Below the pieces are notes generated by a model. That model worked only from the letters and a program-made list of their open reading frames with translations, was not told the DNA's origin and did not search any database. From positions 62,001 to 125,376 of IMG/VR virus record IMGVR_UViG_3300026413_000011: a DNA stretch of 63,376 nucleotides. The stretch is one strand, 5' to 3'. How positions within the stretch are numbered: position 1 is the first letter of the stretch; the number at the start of each line of letters is the position of its first letter. A program made the position numbers and the translations under genes. Shown here in pieces: positions 23,160 through 34,215 of the stretch. The stretch comes from an uncultured virus (IMG/VR IMGVR_UViG_3300026413_000011) (lineage: Duplodnaviria; Heunggongvirae; Uroviricota; Caudoviricetes).

Positions 23160-24422
23160 TCACCCCTTTACACAAAGGAACTGTTTGAGCGTATGAACGA
23201 TTTCTACCAGTTCTTCTTGTGCAGCCATTACGTCTTCGATGTTCTTGTATGCCTTTGGAGTTTCATCGATCACGTCGATATCCTTACGGCATTCTACACC
23301 CGCGGTATCACGGATGTGATCTTCGAGCGTAAAGGTTTTAGCTGCTTGGGTACGAGACATCACTCGACCTGCGCCATGCGAACACGAGCAGAACGAATCA
23401 CGGTTACCCTTACCACGAACGATAAAGGACTTTGCACCCATCGACCCAGGGATAATACCCAACACCCCTTGAGAAGCGTTTACGGCACCCTTACGAGTAA
23501 CGAGTACGTTGTTACCCATGTGTCGTTCTTCCGACACGTAGTTGTGGTGACAGTTGATCGCACCCATATCTGAATCGATCGGCAGACCCAGTACGTTGTG
23601 GATTGCACCCAAGGTGGCATGCATCATCAAAGAACGGTTCAGTGCAGCAAACCGTTGTGCCCACGATACAGCACCAATGTAGTCTTGGTAATACTTCGAG
23701 CCTTCTGGCAAGTAAGCGAGGTCACCATCTGGCAGATGGATGAAGAAACGTTGCATCTCTTCTTTTGCCTTGGCGATGAAGTAAGTGCCGATTGCGTTAC
23801 CAATACCACGCGAACCAGAATGCAGCATTACCCACACTTGATCAGTTTCATCCAGACACAGTTCGATGAAGTGGTTACCAGTACCGAGAGTACCTACGTG
23901 ATTCCATGCACGCTGTGCTGCTTTAGCCAACTTAGGATGTTTCTCACAGATCCAATCCAGTTGCTTACGAAGTTCGAATGCTTCGTCACGAATAGCTTTG
24001 ACTGGGTGATCGAATACCTTTACAGTACCGAAAGCACCACGGTCATTCTTACCGCCGTTATCAGTACGGCCATGTGGAACGGCTGCTTCGATAGCTGCAC
24101 GCAGATGACCCAAGGACTCTGGTAGTGCGGTCGACTTAAAGGTCAAACGTTGTGCCGCCATTCCACAGCCGATGTCAACACCTACAGCTGCTGGAATGAT
24201 TGCACCTTTGGTGGCAACCACAGAACCTACCGTTGCACCTTTACCCAGATGTACATCGGGCATCACAGCAATGTGGGAATAGATGAACGGTAGCGATGCA
24301 ATGTTCTTGAGTTGCTTAACCGCATCGGGTTCAACTGGAACACCAACGGTCCAGCCTTTGATTGGCTTGGAACCTGGAGCTGGTTCACCGCCGATGATTT
24401 CGAATGTACGTGTCTGTTTCAT
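23160..24422 (-). CDS. rtcB: RtcB RNA 3'-phosphate/5'-OH ligase
   Basis: MPDVHLGKGATVG, VGVDIGCG, GTLGTGNHFIE, LHSGSRG, HHNY, IPGSMG, SCSHGAGR, DETPKAYK motifs. Confidence 0.95.
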   Translation of the reverse strand: MKQTRTFEIIGGEPAPGSKPIKGWTVGVPVEPDAVKQLKNIASLPFIYSHIAVMPDVHLGKGATVGSVVATKGAIIPAAVGVDIGCGMAAQRLTFKSTALPESLGHLRAAIEAAVPHGRTDNGGKNDRGAFGTVKVFDHPVKAIRDEAFELRKQLDWICEKHPKLAKAAQRAWNHVGTLGTGNHFIELCLDETDQVWVMLHSGSRGIGNAIGTYFIAKAKEEMQRFFIHLPDGDLAYLPEGSKYYQDYIGAVSWAQRFAALNRSLMMHATLGAIHNVLGLPIDSDMGAINCHHNYVSEERHMGNNVLVTRKGAVNASQGVLGIIPGSMGAKSFIVRGKGNRDSFCSCSHGAGRVMSRTQAAKTFTLEDHIRDTAGVECRKDIDVIDETPKAYKNIEDVMAAQEELVEIVHTLKQFLCVKG

Positions 24423-24447
24423 ATAGCTCTCGCGGATGGAATAGAGT

Positions 24448-24795
24448 TTAAAGGGTATTGCGTTTAGACAAACCAAAACTAAGGACGTAACGAGTACCTT
24501 TAGTTACTTGGCTTACGCTGTGAGTGTGTAGATCAGGACGGAACAATGTGAAGAAGCGATTGCTTATGATCACATCATCGTGTTCTGGTACACCACCTGC
24601 TTGTGCATTCCACAAGTAGATGTTTAATCTGTAGTGACTGTGATCTGGCAATGGATCACGATGCCGTGGTATCCCTGCACCTACCCGATATCGCAATAAG
24701 TAGAGATCCCATTTGAAACGACTGAAGTACCGCCAACGGTTTATCAACTTCAGTTTTTCGTAACCTGTTCCTTGACGCCCAAGTTCCCATTTCAT
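24448..24795 (-). CDS. 2OG-Fe(II) dioxygenase-fold protein
   Basis: HRD...HSV...GTRYVLS: HxD/H/R facial-triad pattern. Confidence 0.75.
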   Translation of the reverse strand: MKWELGRQGTGYEKLKLINRWRYFSRFKWDLYLLRYRVGAGIPRHRDPLPDHSHYRLNIYLWNAQAGGVPEHDDVIISNRFFTLFRPDLHTHSVSQVTKGTRYVLSFGLSKRNTL

Positions 24796-25612: not shown

Positions 25613-26515
25613 TTATTTCAGGAATGTACCGCATGAAGCTTTTACATCTGTGCCCACCCGAGGGATCACTTTAACCTTTCCTACGTTAGGGAAGTTTCGA
25701 ATTACATCCGCTAGGAAGTAGATGTATTCTTCTGGTGGTTCTTTTGAGTCATGTCCTTCCGGCGGGTTGTAACGTACGATGTTCCAGTTCACAGTGAGAC
25801 CGTAGGCATAGACCATGTTACAGCAGTCGAGTACATTGTCTACAGAGTCATTTTCTCCATCGATAAAGGCGTAATGAATCTTGGGGATTTTGCCTGTTTG
25901 CTCTTGCCATTGTCGGAGCATACGCAAGGCATTGTTACACGGTATTGCTTTTGGCAACCAACGCTTACGGAACTTCACCTCTGTGGAATACATTGAGTAG
26001 TAAAGTTCAGGATACACGCTGGGGTCTTTGAAGATATCTGTCAGGGCTAAGTCACCCATCTCCTTAGGCATGATCGTAGAGATCAAAAACTTAGGTGTCA
26101 ATGCCCATTTCTTTGCGAGGTCCCGCAGGCGGCCCAAGATCTCATCGGCATTCTCCAAGAAGATCTTATTAGCCAATGGTTCACCACGGGCCATGAAGTT
26201 GAAGTGGACCTTATTAGCAAACTTACCGGTGTAAGACAGCCGTCGTCCGTAGTGTTCCATTACTCGTTCGGCTTGTTGCAGATATTCGTCCACAGTAACG
26301 TCACGAGATTTGTTCTGTCCTGTTTGAGTCAACCAACACATACGACAGGCTTGTTCACATCCAGTCTGAGAAGACAGGTAAACGATGAAGTAATCGTCAG
26401 TCCGTTGGACATACCGCGCTTCCAACATACCTGGTCCATCTTCCAAACGATGTTCGAAGTTTACTGACCGATCAAGTTCAGACCAATGTTCGCGGAAGAT
26501 CAATTTATTTTCCAT
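25613..26515 (-). CDS. RlmN/Cfr-like radical SAM RNA methyltransferase
   Basis: SSQTGCEQACRMC (CxxxCxxC), FMARGEPL, C-terminal ASCG. Confidence 0.85.
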   Translation of the reverse strand: MENKLIFREHWSELDRSVNFEHRLEDGPGMLEARYVQRTDDYFIVYLSSQTGCEQACRMCWLTQTGQNKSRDVTVDEYLQQAERVMEHYGRRLSYTGKFANKVHFNFMARGEPLANKIFLENADEILGRLRDLAKKWALTPKFLISTIMPKEMGDLALTDIFKDPSVYPELYYSMYSTEVKFRKRWLPKAIPCNNALRMLRQWQEQTGKIPKIHYAFIDGENDSVDNVLDCCNMVYAYGLTVNWNIVRYNPPEGHDSKEPPEEYIYFLADVIRNFPNVGKVKVIPRVGTDVKASCGTFLK

Positions 26516-27330: not shown

Positions 27331-27357
27331 TATATTATTATACTCGTAGTATTTTTT
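27331..27357 (-). promoter_or_regulatory. putative phage (middle-type) promoter for tRNA unit 1
   Basis: AAAATACT-N13-TATA; same motif precedes tRNA units 2 and 3. Confidence 0.65.
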
Positions 27358-28355: not shown

Positions 28356-28397
28356 TGTCATATTGGCTTCCCCTAGGGGAAGCCTTATGTCGTTCCA

Positions 28398-29068: not shown

Positions 29069-29132
29069 TCTATTATCTCCTAAACATAACATTGCGGCAT
29101 AAAGCTTCCCCTAGGGGAAGCACTATGTTGTT

Positions 29133-29217
29133 TGGTGCCGGAAGCGAGATTCGAACTCGCGATCCCGATGGGCGACGCATTTTAAGTGCGTTGTGTATTC
29201 CACTCCACCATTCCGGC
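29133..29217 (-). tRNA. tRNA-Leu(UAA)
   Basis: loop CT-TAA-AA, long variable arm, CCA. Confidence 0.93.
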
Positions 29218-29974
29218 TAATTAGTCCCAGCTATACAAACTTGTAGATCGCCACTGGGGAACTTTTCAACCTAACACATCGCTGTTCATGAAGACTAGCA
29301 CGGAAGTTAGGTCTATCTACTACTCACCTCACAAGCAGCTTCAGAATGCGATGGAGGGCAAGTATTCGAGAATATGTGCACACCAAGTAACCACTCAAGA
29401 GGTACACCCGTGTGCGCGGAGGAAACGCCCTTCCTCATTGGGACTATGACCACCCGAAGGCTCACTGTCGTGCAGATGGCCTCACATCTAAAACCCTTAG
29501 GTTCTCAATGTAGACCGGTGACGGAATCTACTAATCCGTTGTAGCCGAGTCATCACGCTTCTTCGGAATGAGCGCCTTAGTAACCAGGACTATCTGGCCT
29601 TTGGGGTATCGAGGGTACGGGCATCGAGTTTCCCTGTTAACTGATTACTCTAGTCTTTTATCAGTCGTCATTGGGTATCATTCATAGAACTCACAAGTGC
29701 AACTCTGCGCCCTAGTCTGAGGATTAATCAGACACCTGTGTAGTCCAGAGCCTAGGACGGATTAAGTCCAAGGTCTTGCATCTCTCAGTGGAGAGACGTA
29801 TTGTAAGAGAGTGATGAAACGATCCTCTACCTTCATCTATTCGGACTCAGGCGACCTTTTCAGCGCAGTGGGGTGGAGTGCACTTACCCAACACCCTGTC
29901 ATGGGCTCTTACAAAATCGATTGCCTAAGGTGTGTTAGACCAGAGGACTTGCAGACCGAAGTCTGTGATGAAAT
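29218..29974 (-). ncRNA. candidate large structured ncRNA (or series of RNAs) between tRNA-Trp and tRNA-Leu
   Basis: ~750 nt with no ORF of 60 aa or more; many hairpins and long-range closing stems. Confidence 0.55.
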
Positions 29975-30050
29975 TGGCGGGCCATGATGGACTCGAACCA
30001 CCAACACCCGGCTTTGGAGGCCGGTGTTCTGCCAATTGAACTAATGACCC
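29975..30050 (-). tRNA. tRNA-Trp(CCA)
   Basis: loop CT-CCA-AA, G73, CCA. Confidence 0.93.
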
Positions 30051-30160
30051 TGAAATTGGCCGGGTTTATTTAAGTGAGGTTCCGGTATCTCACCCCTGAA
30101 CGTGAAGGTTTTAGGCTGCCTTCACTTACGCTCTGATGGAGGTCTAACGGCAACCTCTCG

Positions 30161-30187
30161 TATACTATTACACAATCAGTATTTTAT
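30161..30187 (-). promoter_or_regulatory. putative promoter for tRNA unit 2
   Basis: AAAATACT-N13-TATA. Confidence 0.65.
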
Positions 30188-33219: not shown

Positions 33220-33416
33220 TGAAATTGAATTGCGATACCAGGCTTCCTCTGGATGACCTTTGACCCTAGCTCGCTGTGTGGACTAGGAGGCGCTTGAAAT
33301 CTTTACCCGAACAGTTCCCTAGTAATTGATTACCCTGCGCGTCAGGTCGCGTTTACTAGGTAGGCGCGTAGCGTCGCCTCGTTTTAGTTCTGTACCTAAG
33401 TACCTTCTGTTCGGCA

Positions 33417-33492
33417 CACCGACCTGCGGGGATCGAACCCGCGACATCAACCCTGATACAGGGTGCGCTCTCCCAACTGAGCTAAGGTGGTG
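33417..33492 (-). ncRNA. tRNA-like element / pseudo-tRNA with aberrant anticodon arm
   Basis: canonical D and T arms; anticodon arm ACCCTG-TAT-CAGGGT, bulged acceptor stem, no CCA. Confidence 0.65.
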
Positions 33493-33576: not shown

Positions 33577-33777
33577 AGAAAAGGGTGATCACCTTGTTAC
33601 CTGGACTCTACCTACCGTACGAATCGGTAAGTGGTGTTTGTCAGAAGATGATCGACTAGCAGTCGCCGGTCCGCCCGGTCATGGGGTTTTAACCCTTCGA
33701 TGCTAGTAAAGATTACCAAGGCTTGCAACGAGCTAACGGTTACCCGTTTGGTGCAAGAGCTGATCCGGTAATCGAAT

Positions 33778-33853: not shown

Positions 33854-33863
33854 GTAAAACATC

Positions 33864-33957
33864 GAATTAGTAGCGCTCTAACCTGTAAGCTAACAGCCCT
33901 GTTGGGTAGGCGGGCCTTCCGAGTCAAGGGTATTGAACCCAAGTCCTCTACTAATTC
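33864..33957 (-). ncRNA. circularly permuted tRNA-like RNA (T arm before D arm; YrlA-like topology)
   Basis: 10-bp terminal stem GAATTAGTAG/CTACTAATTC enclosing a GGG-TTCAATA-CCC T arm, then a TA-GCTT-ACAGGTTA-GAGC D arm. Confidence 0.6.
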
Positions 33958-33961
33958 AAAT

Positions 33962-34187: not shown

Positions 34188-34215
34188 TATACTATTACAC
34201 ACCGAGTATTATTTT
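34188..34215 (-). promoter_or_regulatory. putative promoter for tRNA unit 3
   Basis: AATACT-N13-TATA. Confidence 0.65.

What the first reader, a model, noticed from the sequence alone, without database searches (positions are those of the whole stretch)
29218..29974. ~750-nt ORF-free, hairpin-dense RNA punctuated by tRNA-Trp and tRNA-Leu
Seen: the longest non-coding stretch in the window, inside a tRNA transcription unit. It has a 225-nt domain closed by TAGTCCCA/TGGGACTA (29222-29229/29439-29446), a 114-nt domain closed by TTGTAAGAG/CTCTTACAA (29801-29809/29906-29914), a cUUCGg hairpin (29952-29965), two neighbouring hairpins with the same UUAAUCC loop (29715-29733, 29755-29769) and about ten more stems. 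Established: large ncRNAs such as GOLLD and ROOL often lie next to tRNAs in phages. Inference: a large structured ncRNA, or several, released by tRNA processing.
Basis: partly seen in the sequence, partly recalled or inferred. Interest (0 to 1): 0.8.

Follow-up and report, generated by a model that had tools for sequence, protein, structure and literature searches.

The report
Modular large RNA, Pseudomonas jumbo phages
A group of giant Pseudomonas phages carries, just before a leucine tRNA gene, a conserved and intricately folded non-coding RNA that matches no catalogued family; most relatives, though not this copy, include a look-alike of the piece of ribosomal RNA on which the large ribosomal subunit starts to assemble.

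Summary
The 757-nt gap (minus strand) is a real, conserved structured RNA of jumbo phages related to D6, RVTF4, Psa21 and Phabio. Eight other phages carry it at full or near-full length; four more records hold parts. No ORF is shared. Three domains covary strongly (40 of 113 pairs change on both sides), including a double pseudoknot, a kissing loop re-paired in a remote relative, and a 3' pseudoknot ending 7-18 nt before tRNA-Leu(UAA) or a tRNA half in 10 of 10. No Rfam family matches; it is not GOLLD or ROOL. In 7 of 10 homologs the variable middle holds a close copy of 23S rRNA helices 18-20, the uL4/uL24 binding site (up to 34 bits; controls at most 14); the window's copy lacks it. No helix joining the domains was found, and domains are duplicated or lost separately, so one RNA versus several is open. 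Soil RNA libraries hold the stretch, which hints at expression but does not show it. Most likely it is a stable scaffold or decoy RNA cut out by tRNA processing (inferred).

The parts
30161..30172 (-). Promoter-like motif TGTAATAGTATA heading the transcription unit
   Evidence: Exact copies lie before this cluster and the tRNA-His cluster (34188-34199), a 2-mismatch copy before tRNA-Leu(UAG) (27331-27342); the total of 4 matches at 2 mismatches is at chance level, the evidence is position and invariance in 8 of 8 aligned leaders. Promoter activity is inferred.
30051..30160 (-). Structured leader of about 110 nt before tRNA-Trp; present in 7 of 8 aligned relatives, deleted in RVTF4
   Evidence: Alignment A5; covariation not counted.
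29975..30050 (-). tRNA-Trp(CCA)
29218..29974 (-). The non-coding RNA as a whole (757 nt here; about 660-850 nt in homologs); ends not mapped
29922..29965 (-). Optional 5' hairpins including the cUUCGg hairpin; present in 5 of 9 aligned sequences
29801..29914 (-). Domain B: outer stem plus three-way junction (P1 29902-29899/29817-29814, P2 29898-29861, P3 29856-29821); duplicated in tandem in L162
   Evidence: 11 of 30 pairs change on both sides, 86.8% of cells paired, 0 of 500 shuffles as high; two copies in G158
29751..29800 (-). Two hairpins of variable sequence (the second holds the window-specific UUAAUCC loop)
   Evidence: single-sequence folds of 9 homologs
29521..29746 (-). Domain DE (core): stem-loop 29740-29692 whose loop forms a double pseudoknot (29712-29709/29622-29619 and 29705-29701/29630-29626); kissing loop 29655-29651/29592-29588; two terminal hairpins
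   Evidence: 20 of 54 pairs change on both sides, 94.5% of cells paired, 0 of 500 shuffles as high; found in Viktualia at 38 bits with all three crossing helices re-paired
29365..29520 (-). Variable middle (49-251 nt in homologs). Here plain hairpins; in 7 of 10 homologs it holds a 23S rRNA H18-H20-like module, which the window lacks
29321..29364 (-). Hairpin G1 with invariant unpaired CUCCAUC and a CUGAAGC-containing loop; occurs at a separate site before a terminator in Viktualia and 201phi2-1
   Evidence: weak CM scores there: 15 and 9 bits
29226..29320 (-). Domain G2: three-way junction whose P3 loop (29258-29253) pairs with the 3'-terminal strand (29231-29226), 8 nt before tRNA-Leu
   Evidence: 9 of 29 pairs of domain G change on both sides, 97.1% paired; pseudoknot 6 of 6 pairs in 9 homologs and 5 of 6 in Phabio, 7-18 nt before the tRNA or tRNA half
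29133..29217 (-). tRNA-Leu(UAA), the constant 3' neighbour
29104..29121 (-). G+C-rich hairpin followed by TTTAT on the minus strand; likely terminator
   Evidence: sequence; the scan listed this palindrome on the + strand only

Best explanation
A previously undescribed family of large, modular, non-coding RNA of one clade of Pseudomonas jumbo phages. Shown by comparison: it is conserved as RNA structure, not as protein code, and is built of self-contained folded domains (B, DE, optional 23S-like F, G) in fixed order directly upstream of tRNA-Leu(UAA). Inferred: it is transcribed from the phage promoter motif with its tRNAs, cut out by host tRNA-processing nucleases (RNase P at the tRNA-Leu 5' end), and protected at its new 3' end by the terminal pseudoknot, so that it accumulates. 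Most likely mode of action (inferred): a non-catalytic scaffold or decoy in the infected cytoplasm, in the manner proposed for ROOL and GOLLD, which may self-associate through its kissing loop and presents protein-binding surfaces to the host translation machinery; the 23S H18-H20 copy of most relatives is the one surface whose partner (uL4/uL24) can be named.
For: Homologs in D6, RVTF4, Psa21, Phabio and five metagenomic records. Covariation in three domains, each 0 of 500 shuffles and far above slid controls. The kissing loop has three further letter states that all pair: GAUCA/UGAUC in RVTF4+L022 and in L039, which sit apart on the domain tree, CAUCG/CGAUG in Viktualia and AGCUA/UAGCU in Phabio. 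No shared ORF; 32 of 141 indels are multiples of 3. Constant 3' context. 23S module: 19-34 bits in 7 homologs against at most 14.1 in 10 sets of shuffles and 7.5 in reverse/complement controls; 18-22 of 23 highly conserved 23S positions kept, H19 re-paired with other letters; Rfam's LSU model flags it independently in RVTF4 (E 0.0013). H18-H20 is the uL4/uL24 site (PMC6426284, passages). 21 RNA runs hold the stretch; in two of four laid, its contig had depth 117 and 15 against 2-10 for other listed contigs.
Against: No helix linking the domains was found. Domains vary separately: B is doubled in L162, DE stands alone in Viktualia, 201phi2-1 keeps only two hairpins, Phabio lacks B. The window, Psa21 and L039 lack the 23S module, so it is not the core function. 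The RNA is not found in 14 other records searched (13 jumbo phages including KTN4, PA1C, EL, Goslar, PCH45; strict filters), so it is dispensable for the lifestyle. Few independent lineages: many pairs never vary, and the structures were derived from these same alignments. Expression evidence is contigs only, from runs chosen for holding this stretch; two of four runs cover the whole region evenly and may contain DNA; no strand, ends or level. In X20 the deep contig stops at 29522, short of domain G. Oligomer formation and protein binding were not tested.
Confidence: 0.5

Rival explanations
1. The gap is a cassette of several separate small RNAs (B about 110 nt, DE about 230 nt, F about 50 nt, G about 140-190 nt), co-transcribed and cut apart, each with its own target (protein sponge, aptamer or nuclease decoy).
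For: B is duplicated in L162; DE stands alone before tRNA-Leu in Viktualia and G1 lies 3 kb away; domain trees disagree, as after recombination; no inter-domain helix; the X20 contig ends at the last DE hairpin.
Against: Order B-DE-(F)-G is fixed in all 8 sequences that show all three domains, with short linkers and no tRNA, promoter motif or terminator seen between domains; an X22 contig bridges DE and G (weak).
Confidence: 0.25
2. A cis-acting leader for tRNA-Leu(UAA): the structure controls folding, processing, modification or nuclease protection of the tRNA precursor and has no role once released.
For: Every homolog with a visible 3' side abuts tRNA-Leu(UAA), even the 70-nt remnant in 201phi2-1 and the DE-only form in Viktualia; a tRNA ligase RtcB and an RlmN-like radical SAM gene lie within 6 kb.
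Against: The domain next to the tRNA differs (G in 10 sequences, DE plus a hairpin in Viktualia and 201phi2-1); 700 nt of ornate structure and an rRNA module are not needed for tRNA maturation; no T-box match in Rfam.
Confidence: 0.12
3. A ribozyme or the relic of a self-splicing or mobile intron (group I, group II, RNase P-like).
For: DE has a nested double pseudoknot whose strand order recalls the group I P3/P7 core (recalled); weak Rfam match to group-II-D1D4-4 over module F in L162 and L164 (E 0.5-0.75); HNH genes follow the tRNA in D6 and Psa21.
Against: No ribozyme or intron family at E <= 10 in the window; the P7-like GACUA/UAGUC helix is a loop-loop pair whose G-C is swapped in Viktualia; 0 of 18 group II-matching loci hit the element profile at 8 bits while 52 of 60 23S sequences do; no domain V match; no joint within the element in four RNA assemblies (contigs drop rare forms).
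Confidence: 0.08
4. A functionless spacer of decayed tRNA-region DNA that folds by chance and is degraded.
For: Folding energy of the window copy is unremarkable; large parts are lost in some relatives.
Against: Compensatory changes in crossing helices out to Viktualia, whose structural protein is only 48% identical to the window's.
Confidence: 0.04

Closest known systems
ROOL RNA (mean 581 nt) and GOLLD RNA (often over 800 nt); PMC5737381, PMC12286853
   Same: Size, multi-junction fold with several pseudoknots, a covarying kissing loop, a variable internal linker, phage origin, position in a tRNA island, unknown function.
   Different: No sequence or structure match to either model; no long-range closing helix found; confined to one clade of Pseudomonas jumbo phages rather than several phyla; domains are shuffled separately; carries an optional 23S rRNA module. 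Cage formation untested.
23S rRNA helices H18-H20 (E. coli about 293-342), the uL4/uL24 binding three-way junction
   Same: In 7 of 10 homologs: 18-22 of 23 highly conserved positions, paired H19 and H20, and the 317-334, 318-333 and 319-323 pairs (pair numbers recalled, pairing checked).
   Different: About 50 nt only; absent from the window's copy; no other part of the RNA resembles 23S above chance; closer to other bacterial 23S (35-39 of 51 positions) than to the Pseudomonas 23S sampled (29-33 of 51), so not a recent capture from the host.
Group II intron domain I (Rfam RF02003 group-II-D1D4-4)
   Same: Shares the GGUGAnAGUCC T-loop hairpin followed by a GGUAAC-type loop in L162 and L164.
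   Different: Scores 15-16 bits against a cut-off of 49; no domains V/VI, no reverse transcriptase gene, no profile hit to 18 loci fetched with that family.
Exoribonuclease-resistant RNA (xrRNA) fold of flaviviruses (recalled, no call)
   Same: Domain G2 has the same wiring: three-way junction with the P3 loop paired to a downstream strand.
   Different: Sits at the predicted 3' end, has 12-51 nt with optional hairpins before the downstream strand, and matches no Rfam xrRNA model; resemblance is topological only.

Membership tests
GOLLD | Match to the Rfam covariance model (conserved 3' region) | tested here: not met
   No match at E <= 10 in window, L162, L164 or E <= 1 in eight further loci.
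ROOL | Match to the Rfam covariance model (P1-P19, three pseudoknots) | tested here: not met
   Same calls.
GOLLD/ROOL-like large ornate phage RNAs (as a kind) | Over 500 nt, non-coding, several junctions and pseudoknots supported by covariation | tested here: met
GOLLD/ROOL-like large ornate phage RNAs (as a kind) | Located in a phage tRNA island | tested here: met
GOLLD/ROOL-like large ornate phage RNAs (as a kind) | Accumulates as one abundant transcript | tested here: inconclusive
   Contigs only; depth peak in 2 of 4 runs, no ends or strand.
GOLLD/ROOL-like large ornate phage RNAs (as a kind) | Forms RNA-only homo-oligomeric cages | not testable with these tools
   Needs mass photometry or cryo-EM.
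23S rRNA H18-H20 module | Sequence and pairing of the three-way junction (in relatives) | tested here: met
   7 of 10 homologs.
23S rRNA H18-H20 module | Presence in the window's own copy or genome | tested here: not met
   No profile hit; exact pattern absent from G156, the 305-kb record identical to the window here.
23S rRNA H18-H20 module | Binds uL4 and uL24 | not testable with these tools
   Needs a binding assay.
Group II intron | Catalytic domain V and domain VI; homology to domain I | tested here: not met
   No Rfam match for domains V/VI; 0 of 18 loci hit.
Group I intron | P4-P6 domain and invariant G-C pair of the P7 guanosine site; splicing | tested here: not met
   No Rfam match; the P7 look-alike is a kissing loop with C-G in Viktualia; no room for P4-P6; no joint.
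RNase P RNA, tmRNA, small self-cleaving ribozymes, T-box | Match to their models | tested here: not met
   ARAGORN finds no tmRNA; Rfam none at E <= 10; an RNase P P4-like pairing seen in window and D6 is broken in RVTF4 and Psa21.
Protein-coding region | Conserved ORF, frame-keeping indels | tested here: not met

The most novel reading that the evidence does not exclude
These phages make a ribosomal-RNA mimic: a large RNA that in most members displays a working copy of the 23S H18-H20 junction, binds the 50S assembly proteins uL4 and uL24, and so sequesters them, rewires ribosome biogenesis or stands in for rRNA as a decoy during infection, while its other domains assemble it into a multivalent particle.
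Probability: 0.25. Interest if true: 0.9.

Novelty: new variant of a known kind. Interest (0 to 1): 0.72.

Why it matters
GOLLD and ROOL form cages but have no known function or partner. This family offers the same setting in phages that are already isolated and grow on laboratory Pseudomonas strains (Phabio, 201phi2-1), with natural deletion variants from 70 to 850 nt, and one module with a nameable ligand (uL4/uL24). That makes the open question of what large tRNA-island RNAs do directly testable. A phage-encoded copy of an rRNA assembly site was not found in the eight literature searches run here.

Tried and rejected
1. Mosaic mimic of many 23S regions (GTPase centre 1046-1068, 1279-1335, 1535-1675 seen by local alignment to E. 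coli 23S): rejected. Against a 60-sequence 23S profile only H18-H20 exceeds controls, and in profile-profile alignment the next peak is 14.5 with shuffled maxima up to 19.2. 2. Long-range helix GGGUAAG (29889-29883) with CUUGCCC (29362-29356): rejected; both strands have better-supported local partners and L039/L022 lack the 5' strand. 3. An 11-nt tetraloop-receptor-like pairing near the 5' end, seen by eye: dropped, it competes with P1 of domain B; not counted. 4. RVTF4, the only relative with the same segment, could form a shorter version, so an alternative fold in those two is not excluded. 5. Homolog searches with little yield: one search gave 33 loci, 7 true (3 new sequences); one search gave 4, 2 true (1 new); one search gave 113 (80 fetched), none true; one search gave 6 (2 new); two searches gave none; one search gave 2 already held. 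The DE model found nothing in 151 bacterial genomes of one phylum (no positive control in that set). 6. Chimallin check: the Pfam accession used was recalled wrongly and is uninformative; nucleus formation is inferred from relatives (PMC10643120 passages name ChmA in Phabio and 201phi2-1). 7. Y-RNA/Ro60 idea for a nearby spacer: no TROVE gene in 5 of 5 records, no credible YrlA match. 8. MAFFT Q-INS-i was unavailable; alignments are sequence-only. 9. Fremin 2023 candidate RNAs: six terms gave no hit in 6 supplementary files; 3 files, probably including the alignments, could not be searched, so a 30-150 nt piece may be listed there.

Full report
Setting. The window is part of a Pseudomonas jumbo phage: a 904-aa structural protein is 92% identical to that of phage D6 and 48-57% to those of Viktualia, KTN4 and PA1C. 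It has 13 tRNA genes in three minus-strand clusters, an RtcB ligase, a radical SAM protein, ribonucleotide reductase and terminase genes. Three fetched records (L013, L021, L046) are identical to the window over the element and are not counted as homologs. Relatives Phabio and 201phi2-1 encode the nuclear shell protein ChmA (PMC10643120, passages); it was not tested for this genome.

Observation. The stretch 29218-29974 lies between tRNA-Trp and tRNA-Leu(UAA) on the minus strand, in the longest part of the window without an ORF of 60 aa. Its folding energy is not remarkable (z -1.94; -0.71 for local folds). Rfam gives nothing but the tRNAs at gathering score and only chance-level matches at E <= 10. 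A promoter-like motif precedes each of the three tRNA clusters and is invariant in 8 of 8 aligned leaders; a terminator-like hairpin follows tRNA-Leu. The inferred transcript is leader, tRNA-Trp, RNA, tRNA-Leu, about 1,050 nt.

Homologs. BLAST of 50,697 phage records gave 8 records of 6 names at E <= 10: D6, RVTF4, Psa21, Phabio, Viktualia and one chance hit. Motif scans added L039, L022 (cut at its 3' end), L012 (3' part only), L043, L162 and L164 (yields listed under Tried and rejected). Nine sequences cover most of the element. No ORF is shared, and 32 of 141 indels are multiples of three. In five of the nine a protein gene (annotated polysaccharide lyase family 7 in Psa21) sits between the upstream tRNA and the RNA, so only the 3' neighbour is constant.

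Structure. Three domains were aligned separately and their pairs counted. Domain B (10 copies): 11 of 30 pairs change on both sides, 86.8% of cells pair. Domain DE (9): 20 of 54, 94.5%. Domain G (10): 9 of 29, 97.1%. Each beats 500 of 500 shuffles on cells paired, both-side changes and covariation score; the count of further pair types does so only for B (272 and 104 of 500 shuffles reach it for DE and G). Slid partners pair in 26-51% of cells. The structures were drawn from these alignments, which inflates the contrast, so remote homologs matter more. A model of DE found a copy in Viktualia (38 bits, E 1e-9) directly before its tRNA-Leu(UAA), and a two-hairpin remnant before tRNA-Leu(UAA) of 201phi2-1. 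In Viktualia, which was not in the training set, the kissing loop reads CAUCG/CGAUG instead of GACUA/UAGUC (4 of 5 pairs swapped), and the two pseudoknot helices read GGGUC/GACCC and GAUU/AAUC. Phabio has a weaker copy (21 bits) with AGCUA/UAGCU. The 3' pseudoknot pairs 6 of 6 in nine homologs and 5 of 6 in Phabio, and ends 7-18 nt before the tRNA or tRNA half.

Distribution and modularity. Over 26 whole records the models matched 8 (B), 10 (G; one at E 0.07, probably chance) and 10 (DE) records, all within the D6/Psa21/Phabio/Viktualia/201phi2-1 group; none in KTN4, PA1C, HHBS36_1, ten more distant jumbo phages or G162 (strict filters). B is doubled in L162; Phabio lacks B; Viktualia and 201phi2-1 keep the G1 hairpin at another site. 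Trees of the three domains place RVTF4 differently each time (few starred branches). A scan for helices between any columns found none that links domains convincingly. The element is therefore best described as a fixed-order string of autonomous domains.

The rRNA-like module. Local alignment to E. coli 23S suggested several look-alikes. A profile was built from 60 23S sequences (E. coli plus 59 of 80 loci; the rest were too short). Only E. coli 293-342 (H18-H20) holds up: 34.2, 34.0, 29.7, 24.2, 22.4, 21.5 and 19.5 bits in L164, L162, RVTF4, Phabio, L022, L043 and D6, against maxima of 14.1 (10 shuffled sets), 7.5 (reverse complement) and 6.5 (reversed). Profile-profile alignment gives 30.8 against shuffled maxima up to 19.2, all other peaks within the null. 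In reverse, the element's sub-profile hits 52 of 60 23S sequences and 0 of 18 loci fetched with the group II family that had matched weakly. Rfam's archaeal LSU model reports the RVTF4 copy (25.4 bits, E 0.0013). The copies keep 18-22 of 23 positions that are at least 90% conserved in 23S and re-pair H19 with different letters. H18-H20 is the fragment that binds only uL4 and uL24 at the start of 50S assembly (PMC6426284, passages). The window, Psa21 and L039 lack the module; its pattern is in 6 of 26 records, once each, always inside this RNA (L043's record was not among them). Whether it binds the proteins or is a reused folding motif is open: the T-loop hairpin also occurs in group II introns.

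Expression. All 24 runs listed hold at least half of the sampled words; 21 are soil RNA libraries, possibly of one campaign. Four were laid, all contigs. In X3 and X10 the whole 9 kb is covered evenly, which may be DNA. In X20 a contig over 29522-30246 has depth 117, the other seven listed 3-10; in X22 a contig over 29271-29834 has depth 15, the other seven listed 3-6. The runs were chosen for holding this stretch and contig depth cannot rank genes, so this is a hint only. No joint falls inside the element.

Mechanism. Shown: conserved tertiary-type structure, no coding, fixed position before tRNA-Leu(UAA), optional rRNA module. Inferred from general knowledge of tRNA processing: release by RNase P and 3'-end maturation, with the terminal pseudoknot shielding the 3' end. 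Inferred by analogy: a stable scaffold or decoy. In ROOL a kissing loop first seen by covariation proved to be an intermolecular bridge, and a poorly conserved linker lies inside the cage (PMC12286853, section 6 and passages); this RNA has both features. phiKZ-type phages are known to target the 50S subunit with proteins (PMC10914614, passages), which makes an RNA route plausible but is no evidence for it. Odds: single scaffold/decoy RNA 0.5, cassette of small RNAs 0.25, cis-acting tRNA leader 0.12, ribozyme or intron relic 0.08, inert spacer 0.04.

Novelty. Eight literature searches (terms covering jumbo phage non-coding RNA, GOLLD/ROOL, 23S mimicry, Psa21/Phabio, candidate structured RNAs, H19/H20, uL24, rRNA fragments as decoys) returned no description of this RNA in the listings. 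Passages read: the D6 genome paper mentions no non-coding RNA besides tRNAs (PMC11139720); the phiKZ dRNA-seq paper predicts one 75-nt sRNA (PMC8244752); the viral candidate-RNA survey lists motifs of 29-151 nt, and 3 of its supplementary files could not be searched (PMC10690425); ROOL's definition is from PMC5737381; PMC1747187 was not useful. The library lacks most subscription papers. The scan's own index has no look-alike by sequence or place; other large tRNA-island RNAs of jumbo phages are noted there by words, as unverified leads. Verdict: a new family within the known kind of large ornate phage RNAs, with an unusual rRNA-derived or rRNA-convergent module in most members. Interest 0.72.

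Noticed in passing
L001:4975-5104 (D6) and L003:4600-4731 (Psa21): A 5' tRNA half, broken off at the anticodon loop, lies between the RNA and the complete tRNA-Leu(UAA), and an HNH endonuclease gene follows the tRNA: looks like the scar of intronless homing into the tRNA gene.
   Followed up: no
window 30051-30160 (-): Conserved structured leader between the promoter motif and tRNA-Trp in 7 of 8 relatives, in two sequence types; possible pseudoknot at its 3' end. No Rfam match.
   Followed up: partly
window 33220-33417, 33577-33777, 33854-33961 (-): Three more ORF-poor spacers of 110-200 nt between tRNAs; hairpin-rich, no credible Rfam match. Conservation not examined.
   Followed up: partly
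window 33418-33491 (-): Degenerate tRNA called Ile(UAU) by ARAGORN; 33.5 bits, mismatched acceptor stem, no CCA.
   Followed up: no
L006:2681-3060 (Viktualia) and L047:3000-3214 (201phi2-1): A different conserved non-coding block of about 130 nt followed by the G1 hairpin and a terminator (90% identical pieces); annotated in Viktualia as tiny hypothetical ORFs.
   Followed up: partly
L022, L162, L164 (after tRNA-Trp or before it): Decayed tRNA fragments (isolated T-arms and D-arms) around an inserted gene annotated polysaccharide lyase family 7 in Psa21.
   Followed up: no
window 23160-24476 and 25613-26515 (-): RtcB tRNA ligase and an RlmN-like radical SAM gene downstream of the tRNA clusters; close homologs of the latter (62-67%) occur in the same six named phages that hold the RNA or its remnants.
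   Followed up: partly
window 28368-28385 and 29104-29121: The same G+C-rich palindromic hairpin closes the convergent Kelch-repeat-like gene unit and the tRNA unit; in run X10 a contig changes strand at 28384, possibly an inversion or assembly artefact.
   Followed up: no
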